Assembly: GCA_002714185.1 (NCBI GenBank)
Contig: PAWM01000008.1
Location: 3,091 to 67,090 of the forward strand
DNA: 64,000 nucleotides
Reading direction: 5' to 3'
Source: Flavobacteriales bacterium
GTDB taxonomy: Bacteria > Bacteroidota > Bacteroidia > Flavobacteriales > TMED113
Shown piece after piece: positions 6,302 to 10,484 of this stretch. The position numbers and the translations under genes are program-made. The notes under the pieces were generated by a model. It was not told the DNA's origin. It did not search any database and saw nothing but the letters and a program-made list of their open reading frames with translations. How positions within the stretch are numbered: the first letter of the stretch is position 1; every line of letters begins with the position of its first letter.

Positions 6302-9300
6302 TAATAGCATTATTTGTCTCAAGTTGTAAAATATAATATCCTGAAGAAAAGTTGTTGATAATTATATGTTCGTTTTTAAAAGTGTTGACATCATAAATAA
6401 TCTTACCAGATAGGTTTAGTATTTTAATATTAAATTGATTGTGATTAATATTAGTGAATTGTATGGTGGTAAAATCATTAAAAGGATTTGGATATATATT
6501 CCACTTAAAATTATTTTCTTCATTTAAACTTACTCCATCACAAGCATCACCAATACCATCATTATTATAATCATCTTGATTTGGATTATAAATCAAAGGA
6601 CAATTGTCAAGTTCATTACAAATTTCATCATCATCATTATCATTTAGACAATTATTGTCGCAATCATAGTACTGTTCTGGGTATTCACATGCTCCAAATA
6701 ACTCTTCTGTTGCTTCTGGATTATAATTACATGCTTCTTCATCCATACATCCTGAAATTTCAAGAGCATCACATATTCCATCTTCGTCTATATCATAACA
6801 GTCGCCGCTACAGTCATATAAGTCATTAGGATATTCAGTGCAGTCATCATTATAACAGTAGTAGCAACTTCCATCAAATGCTGTTGCTTCTGGGTTGTAA
6901 TTGCATGCTCCAATTATAGTGCATCCAAACAAAACGCAACTACCATCATCAAGAATTGCGTCAGGGTTATAGTTGGATGCCTCGGAATCGGTGCAGCCAA
7001 TTTCACAGTTATTATCTGTATTATATGCAAAAGCTGCCATTCCTTCATTGCCATTAGGTAAGGTGAATGATTGGTCACCAATATTTAATGTATTCCCAAA
7101 CCATCCGCTTCCAAATAAAGATGTCATTGTAATAAAATAGCATCCATCATCAAAACAGTAATTGCCGCAATAACTACCTATTTCTTGTCCACTTGTATTA
7201 TATTCCAATACAATCTCACCTTCTATGTTTGTAATTTCCCATCCTAAACTAGAATCAGTTACATTAAAAGAGATTGCAGGGCAATCATTATCATAAGTAC
7301 ATGAACAATCATCAACAAATGCTGAATCATCATAATTTGTTGCTTCTGAGTCTGTACATCCAGTGATTACACAATCACAATTATAAGAAAAGTATTCCTC
7401 TACATATTCTACAGTGTATCCATAGTTTGAAACATAATCATAGCAAAGATAGTTTGAGATTGAATAGTCATATCCTAAATCTATATAAGATTCATATGTT
7501 AATAGGTATTCACAACTATATTCACATGAACCATCATCATAATTTGCCTCTTCATTGTAGTTGTCAGCTAAAGAATTAGTGCAGCCTTCAATAATACAAT
7601 TATCGTTATTAAACCCAAAAGGAGCTATAGCACTAGATCCTGTTGTAAATGTATAATCATATTCATCAATACTTAATATAGCATTATTCCAACCATCCCC
7701 GTATGAATCAAGCATATTTATTGTGTAACATCCATCTTCAAAACAAAAATTTTGACATTCTGGTGCATTTCCTGAGAGGACAGTAGTACCGTTTTCGTTA
7801 ACTATATTCCAGGAAACTTCAGTAGGATAACTTCCGCCTGTCATACTAATTGATGAACAATTAGTATCATAAATACATGAGCAATCATCTACAAATGCTT
7901 CATCATCATAATTTATTGCTTCAGGATCAGTACAGCCAAGTATAACACAGTCACAATTATATCCATAGCTAATGGCCTGTTCAATTGTGTATGTTCCATT
8001 TGTAACATAATAATTACAGTAGTAGTTAGATATAGAGTTGTCGTAATTAGTATCATAATATGATTGGATGTCTAGTAGATATGTGCAGTCTAAAATACAT
8101 GAGCCATCATTTGTATTAGCATTTGGGTCATAATTTTCAGCATAGCTTTGTGTGCATCCGTAGATTGGCTCCTCACATATTAATTCTGCAGACCATCCAT
8201 AACCAGATGCTGAATTGACACTACTATCAGTGGTCCATTCAACTACTAATTCTTCTCCACCAACTATTACTCCATCTAATTCACCATCATATTCTACTCC
8301 ATTTACATATACATGGTCACAGCAGGACTCAGTAGAGCCACTAAAGTTAATAGTTATAATTACTCCAGGGGGGGCATTGTATGTAGCATTGAAGAATTCA
8401 TTGTCACCATAATTATTAAAATCTAAAATTGTCCCACAATCTTCACATTCAGGATCACCATCATATACACAAGAGTTATTATCGATATTAGCAGATAGCA
8501 TAAAGTTACATGCTTGTTCATCAGTACAGCCTTCAATATTATTTCCACAATTTTCTATGATTAAAGTATCTGACCAATTTTGTGGACCTTCGCATACAAT
8601 GTATTCACAGTCACTGATAAATAATTCACAGCCTATACAGTAGTATTCTCCATTTTCAATACATCCTTCACAATTATCAATAGTCATAGTTTCTGACCAA
8701 TTATCTTCATCGGTGCAGGTTATATATTGGCAATCATTCAAAAATAATTCAGATCCAATATCGTAAAAATCACCATCTTGAGTACATCCAGAACATTGAT
8801 CACCAAACATCATTGATTGATTAGTTCCTGACATAATTGGAGTGGTAGAGAGTGTGCTATATAAATTCCAGTTGAAATTTGCAGAACCATTTATATTTAT
8901 TGCAAAACAGTCGTTTTGTAGGTCAGTTAAAAAACAAAGAGAATATGTGCCTGTGTCCATATCTAAAATAGTTTCGTACAGTATTCCATTTAATTCGCCC
9001 ATAACACTGAAAGAAGTTTCATTTACACCTGCCCCTGTCCATTCTAGAGTTAATAATGTTTCATTATTTTCACATTCTATTGGTTCACCGCAATTGATAA
9101 TGGAAATAATGTTAGACCAAGCTTGGTTCTCATCACACTCAATATATTCACATTCGCTAATAAATAATTGTGATCCAATTGTGTATAATTCTCCGTTTTC
9201 CCAACATCCCTCTTGTATTGTTTCGCATTCACCATTCGTATATTCAAATATATTGTTACAAGCTGCTTCACCGGAGTTGCTATATGTTATTCCATTACAG

Positions 9301-10484
9301 CCACAAACAGGATCCCATACTGCCATATATATACAGTCCAGGTCTAGTTCTGCTATACAATCAGTTGTTTCACAATCCCATTCTAAGCTTGTAGTTTCAC
9401 CGGTTAATTCATCTACCCAGAGAGTTACTCCTGCTGCTTGAGCCTCACAACTATTGTTATACATAACACCGTTACAGCCCATAACAGGTTGGTAGATAAA
9501 AGGACAAACAGGTGTTAGAACAATCCATTCTGGATTTATACATGGGCAATCTTCAGTTAACTCTTCATCTTCATCACAAATACTATTTTCATTAATATCA
9601 TTGATACATTCACAATAGCAGGTTTCAATTAATGTACAAGATGTTTCATCAACTTCTGTATATGAGACAAGATATGTGTTAGGGTTAAATGAACAATCAC
9701 AATCTTCAATTATAGTAACCAACTCTTCGCAATCATCTTCACAAATTCCATCTTCATCTACATCAAATATGCATCCGCCTGAAAGTTCATCACAATAAAT
9801 ATTCTCCGAAATTACATATGTACTACTTCCTTGATATCCACATACATCTTCCCATAACCATACACCGGTGTATTCATTTGTCCAGCTGCATCCATATGAT
9901 ATGCATGTTTCTTCATCACTTATATCGTAACAAGAACCAGTGATTACTTCTTCAATCCAAGTTCCTATACAATCATCTACCTCATCACAAATTCCATCTT
10001 CGTCAAGGTCTATTTCACAACCTTCACATTCCAATTCAGTACATCCTAGTATTCCATTTTCACAAAAACAGGTATTACACCAATTATTACCTGTATCTGG
10101 TCCAAACCAACCACTTTCTACTATAGTTCCATCAGATAATATGCATTCATTGATTGCTTGATCCGGGTTTCCTCCTTCAAAAATCCATTGAGTAATTAAT
10201 GCAATCTCTTCATCAGTAAGTGGTTCATTTCCCCATGCAGGCATATACCCAGTTACAATATAATCTTCAAGTACTGAAAGTACATTAGAAGCATCAGTTG
10301 TATTGCCTCCTGCCATTAAATTTTCATAACTATTTAATTCAATTCCTCCAGTGTAACCTGCTCCATTTGAATGGCAACTAACACAGTTGTTGTCAAAAAT
10401 AGGTTGAATTTGGGTGTTATAATCAATTTGGCTAAATGTTACATTATATGTAATTAATATAAGTAGTGTAATAATATGTTTCAT
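6276..10484 (-). CDS. Giant acidic Cys-rich secreted multidomain protein with T9SS C-terminal sorting domain; function unknown
   Basis: 1402-aa ORF. Signal peptide MKHIITLLILITYNVTFSQ. N-terminal CVSCH module. VWC-like, Kazal-like and CUB-like Cys modules. Tandem roughly 190-aa repeat. DNCPLIYNPNQDDYNNDGIGDACD (thrombospondin type-3 repeat). C-terminal NIYPNPFNDFTTIQF...YILQLETNNAIIRETLIIQ (T9SS CTD). Confidence 0.88.
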   Translation of the reverse strand: MKHIITLLILITYNVTFSQIDYNTQIQPIFDNNCVSCHSNGAGYTGGIELNSYENLMAGGNTTDASNVLSVLEDYIVTGYMPAWGNEPLTDEEIALITQWIFEGGNPDQAINECILSDGTIVESGWFGPDTGNNWCNTCFCENGILGCTELECEGCEIDLDEDGICDEVDDCIGTWIEEVITGSCYDISDEETCISYGCSWTNEYTGVWLWEDVCGYQGSSTYVISENIYCDELSGGCIFDVDEDGICEDDCEELVTIIEDCDCSFNPNTYLVSYTEVDETSCTLIETCYCECINDINENSICDEDEELTEDCPCINPEWIVLTPVCPFIYQPVMGCNGVMYNNSCEAQAAGVTLWVDELTGETTSLEWDCETTDCIAELDLDCIYMAVWDPVCGCNGITYSNSGEAACNNIFEYTNGECETIQEGCWENGELYTIGSQLFISECEYIECDENQAWSNIISIINCGEPIECENNETLLTLEWTGAGVNETSFSVMGELNGILYETILDMDTGTYSLCFLTDLQNDCFAININGSANFNWNLYSTLSTTPIMSGTNQSMMFGDQCSGCTQDGDFYDIGSELFLNDCQYITCTDEDNWSETMTIDNCEGCIENGEYYCIGCELFISDCEYIVCEGPQNWSDTLIIENCGNNIEGCTDEQACNFMLSANIDNNSCVYDGDPECEDCGTILDFNNYGDNEFFNATYNAPPGVIITINFSGSTESCCDHVYVNGVEYDGELDGVIVGGEELVVEWTTDSSVNSASGYGWSAELICEEPIYGCTQSYAENYDPNANTNDGSCILDCTYLLDIQSYYDTNYDNSISNYYCNYYVTNGTYTIEQAISYGYNCDCVILGCTDPEAINYDDEAFVDDCSCIYDTNCSSISMTGGSYPTEVSWNIVNENGTTVLSGNAPECQNFCFEDGCYTINMLDSYGDGWNNAILSIDEYDYTFTTGSSAIAPFGFNNDNCIIEGCTNSLADNYNEEANYDDGSCEYSCEYLLTYESYIDLGYDYSISNYLCYDYVSNYGYTVEYVEEYFSYNCDCVITGCTDSEATNYDDSAFVDDCSCTYDNDCPAISFNVTDSSLGWEITNIEGEIVLEYNTSGQEIGSYCGNYCFDDGCYFITMTSLFGSGWFGNTLNIGDQSFTLPNGNEGMAAFAYNTDNNCEIGCTDSEASNYNPDAILDDGSCVLFGCTIIGACNYNPEATAFDGSCYYCYNDDCTEYPNDLYDCSGDCYDIDEDGICDALEISGCMDEEACNYNPEATEELFGACEYPEQYYDCDNNCLNDNDDDEICNELDNCPLIYNPNQDDYNNDGIGDACDGVSLNEENNFKWNIYPNPFNDFTTIQFTNINHNQFNIKILNLSGKIIYDVNTFKNEHIIINNFSSGYYILQLETNNAIIRETLIIQ
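6999..8159 (-). repeat. In-frame tandem duplication (units of 191 and 196 codons) inside the giant T9SS gene
   Basis: Unit 1 is residues 776-966 (GCTQSYAENYDPNANTNDGSC...NNDNCIIE). Unit 2 is residues 967-1162 (GCTNSLADNYNEEANYDDGSC...NTDNNCEI). They are colinear, with roughly half of positions identical by eye and all 14 Cys per unit conserved. Confidence 0.8.

What the first reader, a model, noticed from the sequence alone, without database searches (positions are those of the whole stretch)
6507..10478. About 1,320 consecutive residues with no Lys or Arg in a roughly 110-Cys T9SS cargo protein
In the 1402-aa translation of 6276..10484, the only Lys before residue about 1327 is K2, inside the signal peptide. 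The next K is in FKWNIYPNPF, at the start of the T9SS C-terminal domain, and the only Arg is 7 residues from the end. After signal-peptide and CTD removal, the mature polypeptide would therefore contain no K or R and only about 2 His, against a very large excess of D, E and N and about 110 Cys by my count. Every other protein in this AT-rich window is visibly Lys-rich, since AAA is a favoured codon, so this is strong selection rather than drift. Possible meanings are total resistance to trypsin-like or gingipain-like proteases, a polyanionic cation- or mineral-binding surface layer, or avoidance of amine chemistry. I know of no described family defined by this property.
Basis: seen in the sequence. 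Interest (0 to 1): 0.78.

Follow-up and report, generated by a model that had tools for sequence, protein, structure and literature searches.

The report
Surface protein with no basic residues
A 1,402-residue secreted surface protein of an uncultured ocean Flavobacteriales bacterium has no lysine or arginine anywhere in its exported part; relatives keep this ban under strong selection, so such proteins should be uncuttable by trypsin-type enzymes and invisible to standard proteomics.

Summary
ORF 6276..10484 (minus strand, 1402 aa) has K only at 2, 1327, 1354, 1361 and 1370, and R only at 1396. Residues 19-1326 hold 0 K, 0 R, 2 H, 257 D+E and 110 C.

Chance and AT bias are excluded. Window proteins average 11.3% K+R, and 727 of 1308 mature codons lie one base from a K/R codon. 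About 23 homologues (52-73% identical) carry basic residues at only two sites of the mature part. More than 100 Cys-rich relatives from genomes of 27-63% GC are also K/R-poor, as are unrelated type IX secretion system (T9SS) cargo architectures.

The protein is a Sec/T9SS-exported modular surface protein. It also has two Kazal modules, CUB-like sandwiches, eight copies of an uncatalogued 23-residue Cys motif, a TSP3 repeat and a type A C-terminal sorting domain (CTD).

Only the discarded signal peptide and CTD keep K/R, so selection acts on the exposed product. My best guess for the cause (about 0.4) is proofing against trypsin-type proteases, with a non-stick polyanion as the close rival. Depletion of K/R/H in marine extracellular proteins is already published; the absolute, conserved ban seems undescribed.

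The parts
6276..10484 (-). Whole ORF, 1402 aa plus stop. Identical to NCBI MBF25376.1, hypothetical protein CMP49_02515.
10431..10484 (-). Sec signal peptide, residues 1-18 (MKHIITLLILITYNVTFS), followed by Gln19. Holds K2, the only basic residue besides H3 before the CTD region. Cleavage before Gln fits the Bacteroidetes Q-rule (pyroGlu N-terminus).
   Evidence: Read from the sequence. All 20 full-length orthologues have [S/G/A]-Q at this place. Q-rule: PMC5837995. The cleavage site is inferred, not predicted with a dedicated tool.
6507..10478 (-). K/R-free run, residues 3-1326 (1324 aa).
10182..10412 (-). Class I c-type cytochrome domain, cytochrome c6-like (residues 25-101). Haem motif C34-V-S-C-H38 is at window 10371..10385. 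The axial Met lies in G-Y-M81-P-A-W at window 10233..10250.
   Evidence: Pfam Cytochrome_CBB3: 32.5 bits on the whole protein and 38.2 bits on the segment (cut-off 27). Full-length alignment to PDB cytochromes c6 places CxxCH and MPA(W/F)G in register.
9225..9509 (-). Two Kazal-type modules (residues 326-346 and 388-420 matched).
   Evidence: On the segment, Pfam Kazal_2 scores 32 bits (cut-off 22.8) and Kazal_1 29.8 bits (cut-off 21). Kazal is annotated in homologues P0014 and P0025.
8544..9209 (-). Three roughly 40-aa Cys-rich modules (residues 426-466, 565-605, 607-647), possibly VWC-like, flanking a predicted beta-rich segment (467-562).
   Evidence: Internal repeat scores. Only weak, non-significant VWC structural hits. 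AF2 confidence is low here.
8172..8429 (-). CUB-like beta-sandwich (residues about 686-771). It contains H724, the only non-ligand His of the mature part.
   Evidence: AF2 model pLDDT about 80-88 in this stretch. Foldseek hits to C1r CUB2 6f1d and neuropilin CUB 4gza: TM (target) about 0.6, rmsd 2.4-2.8, prob 1.0. Foldseek does not say which of the model's sandwiches matched. Weak Pfam CUB hit of 18.3 bits, below cut-off.
7005..8162 (-). Tandem duplication of a roughly 195-aa unit (residues 775-965 and 966-1160). Each unit is GCT motif, Tyr-rich helical bundle, GCT motif, beta-sandwich.
   Evidence: Internal repeat scores up to 166. AF2 secondary structure with pLDDT 70-86.
6681..8531 (-). Span holding eight copies of a 23-residue motif, GC[TQM]xxxAxN[YF]...A..DDGSCx[YL]. 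Copies start at residues 652, 776, 850, 967, 1042, 1163, 1187 and 1245. No Pfam family matches it.
   Evidence: Regex finds six copies and two more were read by eye. No Pfam hit. The motif recovered more than 464 related stretches in GTDB species genomes.
6537..6665 (-). Thrombospondin type 3 (Ca-binding) repeat, residues 1274-1316. Shorter DxDEDGICD motifs lie at residues 159, 241 and 1231.
   Evidence: BLASTP gives 49% identity (E 2e-9) to repeats of P0092, a protein annotated with TSP_3. Motif scan. Pfam TSP_3 itself was not reported.
6282..6497 (-). T9SS type A C-terminal sorting domain (residues 1330-1401). The last 76 residues (1327-1402) hold 4 K and 1 R, which is 6.6%.
   Evidence: Pfam Por_Secre_tail 50.3 bits (cut-off 27) and TIGR04183 48.5 bits (cut-off 23). 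K/R positions.

Best explanation
What it is (largely shown). It is a Sec-exported, T9SS-sorted modular surface protein of an uncultured, 27%-GC open-ocean Flavobacteriales bacterium. From N to C it carries a signal peptide, a cytochrome c6-like mono-haem head, Cys-rich modules (two Kazal, three possibly VWC-like), CUB-like beta-sandwiches, eight copies of a 23-residue Cys motif, a TSP3-type Ca-binding repeat and a type A CTD.

How the composition arises (shown). Purifying selection removes every Lys and Arg, and nearly every His, from the part that ends up outside the cell. The two segments that are cut off (signal peptide and CTD) keep normal Lys/Arg content.

The mature product (inferred). 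After signal-peptide cleavage before Gln19 (pyroGlu by the Bacteroidetes Q-rule) and CTD removal with attachment to anionic LPS, the product would have no primary amine. Apart from any charge on the two His, it would have no cationic side chain. It would be a disulfide-locked (up to 54 S-S), Ca2+-loaded chain of about -258 charge holding a redox head away from the cell.

Why (inferred; my committed choice). A single-chain tether fails after one cut, so each exposed Lys or Arg is a point of failure against Arg/Lys-specific (trypsin-type) endopeptidases. These make up a large, mostly dissolved share of proteolytic activity in seawater. Removing all of them, together with disulfide knotting and Kazal modules against other serine proteases, makes the stalk hard to cut. 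The lack of cations also keeps it from sticking to anionic LPS and polymers, and I regard that as a co-benefit.
For: Composition and statistics.

Selection on the mature part only. In about 23 homologues, K/R occur only in the first 2-4 residues and in the last roughly 80. There are 237-500 differences per homologue, but basic residues occupy only two columns (query position 1083 in three sequences, and P0019 K445). One further cluster, in P0015, looks like a frameshift. In 39 CTD-bearing ORFs from related loci, the mature parts hold 0-5.7% K+R while their CTDs hold 3.6-12.5%.

Not mutational bias. Cys-rich relatives hold K 0.3-0.5% and R 0.3-1.2% in genomes from 27 to 63% GC.

Not a property of the folds. 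PDB cytochromes c6 aligned contain K and R. The region is predicted to be folded domains (pLDDT 72.8).

Per-site argument (inference). One or two K/R would not change a -258 charge, so bulk electrostatics gives weak selection per site, whereas a cleavage site gives strong selection per site.

Protease context. Kazal modules pass Pfam cut-offs here. Kazal, Pacifastin and Kunitz domains recur among the homologues. Trypsin-type activity in seawater had Vmax about 130-150 nmol/L/h against 50-90 for aminopeptidase, and is mostly in the <0.2 um fraction (PMC5641328).

T9SS cargo status. Q at the mature N-terminus in all 20 full-length orthologues (PMC5837995).

Other exported proteins of the same window keep normal K/R: an M1 peptidase and a TonB-dependent receptor.
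Against: His is excluded almost as strictly as K/R. Only 2 remain in 1308 residues, one of them the haem ligand, against a background of 2%. Trypsin-type enzymes do not cut at His.

Native folded, disulfide-locked domains usually tolerate K/R without being cleaved, so an absolute ban is more than native-state proteolysis seems to demand.

No specific protease was identified. No expression, localisation or cleavage data exist.

K/R/H-poor T9SS cargo also includes nearly uncharged proteins (D+E 3-5%). This fits a general 'no cations on T9SS filaments' rule at least as well.

The general trend has been ascribed to salinity and cost (PMC11928666).

Whether the CTD is cleaved and the protein anchored to LPS in this organism is assumed from Porphyromonas and Flavobacterium work.
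Confidence: 0.4

Rival explanations
1. Electrostatic design. The ban on all cationic side chains (K, R and His, whose pKa would rise inside a polyanion) keeps a surface-anchored filament extended. It stays repelled from anionic LPS, capsule, eDNA and sulfated algal polymers, and free of self-association with its own acidic Ca2+-binding modules. The polyanion may also act as a Ca2+/Mg2+/trace-metal sponge or a non-stick brush. Protease resistance would be a by-product.
For: This explains K, R and His together. The net charge is about -258 with a TSP3-type Ca-binding repeat and DxDEDG motifs. T9SS cargo in general is K/R-poor: median 4.4% in 107 large proteins picked by a CTD profile alone, including near-neutral SprB-repeat and PPC proteins with under 1% K+R and 0-0.2% His. 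This suggests 'no cations' rather than 'many anions' is the common rule for filaments displayed on LPS. CUB-like modules are known, from my own knowledge of C1r/C1s and cubilin, to bind ligand Lys through acidic Ca2+ sites, which a Lys-free chain would not self-engage.
Against: A few K/R among 257 acidic residues would barely change the charge, so near-absolute exclusion at about 1300 sites over about 23 homologues is hard to derive from bulk electrostatics. By my recollection, known Ca-binding polyanions (calsequestrin, calmodulin, animal TSP3 repeats) keep several percent K/R. No binding data exist.
Confidence: 0.3
2. Chemical inertness. The exposed protein carries no nitrogen nucleophile. 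It has no Lys amine, Arg guanidine or (almost) His imidazole, its N-terminus is pyroGlu, and its Cys are in disulfides. It therefore cannot be carbonylated, glycated, halogenated, quinone-tanned, aldehyde-cross-linked or mis-ligated by the PorU transpeptidase during a long life in sunlit, oxidant- and electrophile-containing seawater. It would also be protected next to its own haem or copper head.
For: K, R and His are depleted together, and the N-terminal Gln is conserved in all 20 full-length orthologues (PMC5837995). The Cys count is even: 110, minus 2 for haem, leaves 108. A redox-active head is present on the same chain.
Against: Other oxidation-sensitive residues are enriched rather than avoided: Tyr 7.1%, Trp 1.8%, Met 1.3%. 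The Q-rule applies to most Bacteroidetes exported proteins, so it is not specific here. No evidence shows that such modifications limit fitness. PorU mis-ligation would not explain the loss of Arg.
Confidence: 0.12
3. Salt adaptation and cost. The protein is simply the extreme of the known halophile-like shift of marine periplasmic and extracellular proteins (fewer K/R/H, more D/E/polar/aromatic). Nitrogen or biosynthetic thrift in an oligotroph that cannot recycle secreted protein adds to the shift.
For: The published trend has the same direction for nearly every residue class (PMC11928666). Side-chain N falls from about 34 to 14 atoms per 100 residues (my calculation from the compositions).
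Against: Asn and Trp, which contain nitrogen, are enriched rather than reduced (Asn 9.9% against 8.0%; also in GC-rich relatives). This argues against N-thrift. Equally K/R-poor relatives occur in MAGs whose record names point to the Black Sea (BS301/BS30m), the Caspian Sea (casp) and a creek; the habitats are my reading of those names (titles, values). By my recollection, even extreme halophiles keep several percent Arg. Periplasmic and outer-membrane proteins of the same window keep 9-11% K+R.
Confidence: 0.08
4. Export constraint. Basic residues are selected against because they hinder transport of very long cargo, through Sec translocation against the membrane potential, passage through the T9SS translocon, or shuttling by PorV across LPS.
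For: Low K/R is common among large CTD-profile hits of many architectures.
Against: Many CTD-profile hits have 6-14% K+R and are just as long. The CTD itself, which passes through the same machinery, keeps 3.6-12.5% K+R. The known Sec charge effect is limited to the region just after the signal peptide (my recollection).
Confidence: 0.06
5. Artefact: wrong frame, assembly chimera, or a non-expressed pseudogene-like ORF whose composition reflects no selection.
For: None found. Expression has not been shown.
Against: An intact 1402-codon ORF carries a signal peptide, four Pfam-supported domains and a CTD in one frame. The identical protein is present in several sources. Orthologues are syntenic. 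K/R absence is conserved despite hundreds of substitutions.
Confidence: 0.01

Closest known systems
T9SS type A cargo: large modular surface or adhesin-like proteins of Bacteroidota (for example SprB-repeat proteins)
   Same: It has a Sec signal peptide plus a Por_Secre_tail/TIGR04183 CTD and a long repetitive, acidic extracellular region. SprB-repeat relatives (P0029-P0037, P0236, P0303) share the K/R poverty.
   Different: It has no SprB repeats. It is built from small disulfide-rich, eukaryote-like modules (Kazal, CUB-like, TSP3) and carries a redox head. The basic-residue ban is absolute rather than partial. Whether characterised cargo such as F. johnsoniae SprB shares the trait was not tested.
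Published compositional trend of marine extracellular proteins (Ayu study, PMC11928666)
   Same: The direction is the same: fewer K/R/H and aliphatics, more D/E, N/S/T and aromatics.
   Different: That study reports a statistical shift in averages, ascribed to salinity and cost. Here the frequency is exactly zero over 1308 residues and is held there across diverged orthologues, including relatives that are probably from brackish and fresh water.
Lysine deserts (PMC10665810, PMC10169902)
   Same: They are long, evolutionarily conserved Lys-free stretches interpreted as protection from a Lys-directed modification.
   Different: Lysine deserts are intracellular, are linked to ubiquitin or Pup tagging, are often disordered, and Arg is kept or enriched. 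Here Arg and His are banned too, the protein is extracellular and folded, and the host phylum is not known to pupylate (my recollection).
Cytochrome c6 / plastocyanin pair of oxygenic phototrophs
   Same: The head aligns end to end with cytochromes c6, with the CxxCH and Met ligands in register. Orthologues P0010, P0023 and P0024 carry instead a cupredoxin with H...C-x4-H-x4-M. This mirrors the classical Fe/Cu swap.
   Different: Here the domains are fused to a T9SS-exported stalk in a heterotroph and lack all K/R. The redox partners are unknown. Haem or Cu loading has not been shown.
Thrombospondin/COMP type 3 repeat 'calcium wire' and other animal mosaic ECM proteins (Kazal, CUB, VWC modules)
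   Same: It shows the DxDxDGxxDxxD-C Ca-binding motif with disulfides, a CUB-like fold and Kazal signatures.
   Different: It is bacterial and exported by T9SS. Animal versions keep normal K/R (my recollection). Pfam TSP_3 and CUB thresholds are not reached.

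Membership tests
T9SS type A cargo protein | C-terminal Por_Secre_tail / TIGR04183 sorting domain at the extreme C-terminus | tested here: met
   PF18962 scores 50.3 bits (cut-off 27) over residues 1330-1401. TIGR04183 scores 48.5 bits (cut-off 23).
T9SS type A cargo protein | N-terminal Sec signal peptide for entry into the periplasm | tested here: inconclusive
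   MKHIITLLILITYNVTFS|Q has the n-, h- and c-region pattern, and Q follows the site in all 20 full-length orthologues. No signal-peptide predictor was available.
T9SS type A cargo protein | T9SS machinery (SprA/Sov, PorV, PorU, GldKLMN) encoded in the same genome; CTD cleaved and cargo attached to LPS | not tested
   The window ORFs were not screened for T9SS components. Cleavage and anchoring need experiments.
Class I c-type cytochrome (cytochrome c6-like) | CxxCH haem-attachment motif and distal Met ligand in a fold of about 80-90 residues | tested here: met
   C34VSCH38 and M81 (GYMPAW) align with CxxCH and MPAFG of PDB cytochromes c6 over the full length. PF13442 scores 38.2 bits against a cut-off of 27.
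Class I c-type cytochrome (cytochrome c6-like) | Covalently bound haem; redox activity | not testable with these tools
   A seven-CxxCH cytochrome at window 52929..54848 implies that the genome matures c-type cytochromes. This is indirect evidence only.
Kazal-type serine protease inhibitor domain | Kazal sequence signature above Pfam threshold | tested here: met
   On segment 320-425, Kazal_2 scores 32 bits (cut-off 22.8) and Kazal_1 29.8 bits (cut-off 21). They were not reported on the whole protein.
Kazal-type serine protease inhibitor domain | Canonical six-Cys pattern with a reactive-site loop; inhibitory activity | tested here: inconclusive
   The second module has ...C-IYMAVWDPV-CGCNGITYSNSGEAAC..., but its loop is two residues longer than in ovomucoid third domain (my reading). 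P1 cannot be K/R. Activity is untested.
Thrombospondin type 3 repeat | Match to Pfam TSP_3 (PF02412) | tested here: not met
   It was not reported at E up to 10 on segment 1160-1330.
Thrombospondin type 3 repeat | DNCPxxxNxxQxDxDxDGxGDxCD consensus | tested here: met
   Residues 1274-1316 align at 46-61% identity to six or more repeats of P0092, which is annotated with TSP_3 (best E 2e-9).
CUB domain | CUB beta-sandwich fold | tested here: inconclusive
   Foldseek matches C1r CUB2 and neuropilin CUB with TM (target) about 0.6 and prob 1.0 on a model with pLDDT about 80. The Pfam CUB-type hit is only 18.3 bits against a cut-off of 32.
Lysine-desert proteins | Conserved Lys-free stretch of at least 150 aa | tested here: met
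   1324 residues, conserved in orthologues.
Lysine-desert proteins | Intracellular protein exposed to ubiquitin/Pup ligation, with Arg retained as the substitute | tested here: not met
   The protein is exported (signal peptide plus CTD) and Arg is also absent.

The most novel reading that the evidence does not exclude
Bacteroidota possess a widespread, so far unrecognised class of 'cation-free' T9SS surface proteins. Their mature parts, hundreds to thousands of residues long, contain essentially no Lys, Arg or His. Standard tryptic (meta)proteomics would therefore miss their mature parts. In one open-ocean lineage, such a stalk carries interchangeable haem (cytochrome c6-like) or copper (plastocyanin-like) heads. 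That would imply redox chemistry at the outer surface of free-living marine Flavobacteriia, for example metal reduction or oxidation, or reactions with oxygen radicals, tuned to iron versus copper supply.
Probability: 0.3. Interest if true: 0.85.

Novelty: new variant of a known kind. Interest (0 to 1): 0.66.

Why it matters
If the ban on basic residues is an adaptation of exposed surface proteins, it reveals a selective pressure on ocean bacteria that is written directly into sequence. That pressure could be dissolved trypsin-type proteases, electrostatic fouling or chemical attack, and knock-in variants can test which.

It also has a practical consequence. Trypsin would release no peptides from the mature part of these proteins, so an abundant class of Bacteroidota surface proteins may be systematically missing from ocean metaproteomes.

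The haem/copper head swap on an exported stalk points to extracellular redox functions in organisms usually treated as plain aerobic heterotrophs.

Finally, 'K+R+H close to zero between a signal peptide and a CTD' is a simple composition rule that could serve as a genome-mining filter.

Tried and rejected
(1) I ran a CTD-profile search with the search for homologous proteins to get a composition-blind cargo sample. It returned only fragments of 143 aa or less and was useless. I replaced it with the representative-library search.

(2) The AF2 model of the N-terminal half (residues 19-650) had mean pLDDT 51. The Foldseek search on it gave nothing significant, only weak VWC hints.

(3) Pfam and NCBIfam on the whole protein found only the cytochrome and the CTD. 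Segment scans were needed to see Kazal. TSP_3 was never reported, and no family matched the 23-residue GCT motif.

(4) Eight literature searches looked for a described K/R-free secreted or T9SS family, or for T9SS cytochromes and cupredoxins. None was found. Only the general marine-secretome trend and intracellular lysine deserts turned up.

(5) AT-bias explanation: rejected, because GC-rich relatives show the same ban.

(6) Nitrogen thrift: rejected as the main driver, because Asn and Trp are enriched.

(7) Operon or context clue: rejected. The neighbours are an ABC transporter, rsmG, tgt and lptF/G, conserved as plain synteny.

(8) A conserved Lys at the CTD junction acting as a processing site: rejected. 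The first basic residue after the desert sits at different positions in different orthologues.

(9) The apparent K/R cluster in orthologue P0015 looks like a local frameshift in that assembly, not a true exception.

Full report

The ORF at window 6276..10484 (minus strand) translates to 1402 residues. Lys occurs only at positions 2, 1327, 1354, 1361 and 1370. Arg occurs only at 1396. His occurs at 3, 38, 724, 1348 and 1373. There are 110 Cys, none in the signal peptide or the last 76 residues. The K/R-free run is residues 3-1326, which is exactly the reported window 6507..10478. Residues 19-1326 hold 127 Asp, 130 Glu, 130 Asn, 0 Lys, 0 Arg and 2 His. Computed pI is about 4.05 and net charge about -258.

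The other long ORFs of the window average 8.2% Lys, 3.1% Arg and 2.0% His. That puts the chance of 1308 residues without K/R near 10^-68. The gene's own base composition predicts 8.7% K+R. 727 of its 1308 mature codons are a single substitution from a K/R codon. The next longest K/R-free run in a plausible ORF of the window is about 63 residues. The region is not low complexity, with 18 residue types and 3.89 bits entropy.

The gene is real. The identical protein is in NCBI as MBF25376.1 (hypothetical protein CMP49_02515, Flavobacteriales MAG from Tara Oceans). A 65%-identical orthologue lies between the same neighbours (ABC transporter; rsmG, tgt, lptF/G) on an independent contig.

2. IT IS SELECTION ON THE EXPORTED PART

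A protein search returned 106 relatives. In the 23 closest (52-73% identity over aligned mature positions), K/R sit in the first 2-4 residues and in the last roughly 80, with K/R-free runs of 630-1380 residues between them. Each differs from the query at 237-500 mature positions. Yet basic residues appear at only two alignment columns. One column (query position 1083, in a beta-sandwich) is K or R in three sequences. The other is a single Lys in P0019. A cluster of five in P0015 lies in a stretch that does not align and looks like a frameshift.

The signal peptide and the CTD, both of which are removed, keep normal basic content. The query's last 76 residues are 6.6% K+R, and related CTDs hold 3.6-12.5% while their mature parts hold 0-5.7%. 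The gene can therefore encode Lys and Arg, and it does so only where the residue will not be exposed.

3. THE TRAIT IS MUCH WIDER THAN THIS FAMILY

A scan of GTDB species genomes used the protein's conserved 23-residue motif, with patterns GC[TQ][ID]xxACNY and DD[CG]SC[VTI]Y. It found more than 464 related stretches. Most are in Flavobacteriales, Crocinitomicaceae, Cryomorphaceae, Saprospiraceae and Chitinophagales MAGs.

In the 79 loci fetched, the 131 ORFs of at least 300 aa with at least 4% Cys have a median K+R of 1.4%. Many hold 0.3-0.9% over 1500-4500 residues, with K/R-free runs up to 2264 residues. The other 452 ORFs have a median of 9.9%. This holds in loci from 27% to 63% GC: K 0.3-0.5%, R 0.3-1.2%, His 0.3-0.7%, with Asn enriched rather than depleted. 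AT bias is therefore excluded, and nitrogen thrift is unlikely as the main cause.

A composition-blind sample came from a CTD profile searched against 1.84 billion representative proteins. It gave 107 large proteins with median K+R of 4.4%. Eight percent of them are below 1%, and their K/R-free runs reach 2588 residues. The K/R-poor ones include unrelated architectures: SdrD_B/PKD, SprB repeats and PPC. Some are almost uncharged, with D+E of 3-5%.

Avoidance of cationic residues is thus a recurrent feature of T9SS-type surface proteins, and it can be separated from being polyanionic. Other exported proteins in the window, an M1 peptidase with a signal peptide and a TonB-dependent receptor, keep 9-11% K+R.

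4. WHAT THE PROTEIN IS

Pfam and NCBIfam identify a type A T9SS sorting domain (residues 1330-1401) and an N-terminal c-type cytochrome domain.

The head aligns over its full length with solved cytochromes c6. C34-x-x-C-H38 falls on the haem motif and M81 (GYMPAW) falls on the axial Met. H38, one of the two mature His, is therefore a cofactor ligand.

Segment scans add two Kazal modules above Pfam cut-offs, a weak Pacifastin/VWC-like signal and a weak CUB signal. Residues 1274-1316 match thrombospondin type 3 repeats of an annotated protein at 49% identity, although Pfam TSP_3 itself was not reported.

Internal comparison shows three roughly 40-residue Cys modules and a tandem duplication of about 195 residues. 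Eight copies of the 23-residue motif have no Pfam family.

An AlphaFold2 model of residues 645-1330 reached mean pLDDT 72.8. It shows beta-sandwiches, small helical bundles and hairpin motifs. Foldseek matched CUB domains, namely C1r CUB2 and neuropilin, with TM about 0.6 on the target and probability 1.0. The K/R-free region is therefore made of folded domains, not a disordered tract. The model of residues 19-650 was poor (pLDDT 51) and gave no significant structural match.

All 20 full-length orthologues have Gln right after the predicted signal-peptide cleavage site. Under the Bacteroidetes Q-rule this becomes pyroglutamate (PMC5837995, PMC10653852). The CTD is replaced by a linkage to LPS in the studied T9SS systems (established for Porphyromonas; assumed here). 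On that basis the mature protein would contain no primary amine at all.

5. A NOTABLE SIDE RESULT

In orthologues P0010, P0023 and P0024, the cytochrome head is replaced by a cupredoxin with an intact type 1 copper signature (His...Cys-x4-His-x4-Met). The rest of the stalk is conserved at 52-71% identity over aligned positions. This is the same haem/copper exchange known for cytochrome c6 and plastocyanin in phototrophs. It argues that the head really transfers electrons.

The window also encodes a seven-haem cytochrome with TPR repeats at 52929..54848. That shows the organism matures c-type cytochromes. I did not establish any link between the two genes.

6. WHY BAN BASIC RESIDUES?

The facts to be explained are these:
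- (a) Exclusion of K and R is near absolute, not merely low frequency.
- (b) His is excluded almost as strongly.
- (c) The ban is confined to the exposed part.
- (d) It is independent of genome GC, and probably of salinity. K/R-poor relatives occur in MAGs whose record names suggest the Black Sea, the Caspian Sea and a creek; the habitats are my reading of those names.
- (e) It also occurs in near-neutral T9SS cargo.
- (f) Serine-protease-inhibitor modules (Kazal, Pacifastin, Kunitz) recur in the family.

My leading explanation (about 0.4) is protease proofing. A single-chain tether is lost after one cut, so each exposed Lys or Arg is individually costly. That cost explains (a), which bulk electrostatics does not. 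Trypsin-type endopeptidase activity is high and mostly dissolved in seawater (PMC5641328). Fact (f) fits a protease-rich setting. This explanation does not account for (b). It also seems more than folded, disulfide-locked domains would need.

The close rival (about 0.3) is a 'no cations' electrostatic design. It would prevent sticking to anionic LPS and polymers, or self-binding to acidic Ca2+ sites. It explains (b) and (e) naturally, but it struggles with (a).

Chemical inertness, meaning no nitrogen nucleophiles (about 0.12), explains (a) and (b). It is undercut by the abundance of Tyr, Trp and Met.

Salt adaptation and cost (about 0.08) is the published reading of the general trend (PMC11928666). 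It is contradicted by the Asn/Trp enrichment, by the relatives that are probably from low-salinity water, and by the normal K/R content of other envelope proteins here.

An export constraint (about 0.06) is contradicted by long CTD-profile hits with 6-14% K+R and by the K/R-rich CTDs themselves.

These explanations are not mutually exclusive. The knock-in experiment in the next-steps field separates them.

7. COMPARISON WITH WHAT IS KNOWN, AND NOVELTY

The protein is a member of a known kind, T9SS type A cargo. It is built from known module types plus one uncatalogued motif.

The direction of its compositional skew is already described for marine extracellular proteins in general (PMC11928666). 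Three things appear to be undescribed in the literature I could search:
- The absolute, evolutionarily maintained exclusion of all three basic residues across more than 1300 residues of folded domains, and up to about 2500 residues in other cargo.
- Its confinement to the mature part.
- The exported cytochrome/cupredoxin head swap.

'Lysine deserts' are the nearest named concept. They are intracellular, tied to ubiquitin or Pup tagging, and keep Arg.

I rate this a new variant of a known kind, with interest about 0.66. A specialist would be surprised by the strictness and breadth of the rule and by the redox head. The cause remains unproven, and the general trend is known.

Noticed in passing
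window 52929..54848 (+): A 639-aa ORF with seven CxxCH motifs (residues 39, 170, 197, 242, 310, 332, 355), C-terminal TPR repeats and a lipoprotein-like N-terminus (…FFVCC). Pfam gives Cytochrome_C7, C554 and Paired_CXXCH, plus a weak MtrC/MtrF-like hit. A multihaem cytochrome is unexpected in a 27%-GC marine Flavobacteriales genome. It could be a redox partner of the surface cytochrome head.
   Followed up: partly
homologues P0010, P0023, P0024 (N-terminal ~110 residues) versus window 10182..10412: The cytochrome c6-like head is swapped for a plastocyanin-like cupredoxin (PF00127; His...Cys-x4-His-x4-Met intact) on an otherwise conserved K/R-free stalk. This is an Fe/Cu cofactor exchange like cytochrome c6/plastocyanin.
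   Followed up: partly
homologue P0006, residues ~34-38: The haem motif reads CVDCY instead of CxxCH, so the proximal His is lost in this orthologue (MAG CMP62). Either the head has lost its haem there or this is a sequence error.
   Followed up: no
window 6681..8531 (-); loci L002-L080: A 23-residue motif, GC[TQ]DxxAxNYxxxAxxDDGSCxY, is present in 8 copies here. It is an uncatalogued, very common module of Bacteroidota secreted proteins.
   Followed up: partly
proteins P0236, P0241, P0286, P0303: These are large T9SS-type proteins (SprB repeats, PPC) with under 1% K+R and 0-0.2% His, but also only 3-5% D+E. They are nearly charge-free surface proteins. This shows that avoidance of basic residues does not require a polyanion.
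   Followed up: partly
alignment column at query residue 1083 (window ~7234..7236, -): This is the only recurrently tolerated basic site in the family. GW[E/S/Q/V/K/R]I in a beta-sandwich is K in P0011 and R in P0012 and P0018.
   Followed up: partly
homologue P0015, residues 376-438: Five K/R are clustered in a stretch (AKMNVKIVVHRRIL…) that does not align with the family consensus. It is probably a frameshift in that metagenome assembly rather than a real exception.
   Followed up: partly
loci L010, L043, L039, L077: Contigs carrying these Bacteroidota-type Cys-rich, K/R-poor genes are filed under a 'Methanobacteriota archaeon' MAG, a 'Comamonadaceae' MAG and 'Chryseobacterium' MAGs with 52-57% GC. 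These are likely mis-binned or mis-named records.
   Followed up: no
window 22080..25511 (-): A 1143-aa M1-family peptidase has a signal peptide ending in ...FSQ (Q-rule) and no T9SS CTD by my profile. It has normal K/R (7.2% and 3.8%). It served as an exported-protein control.
   Followed up: partly
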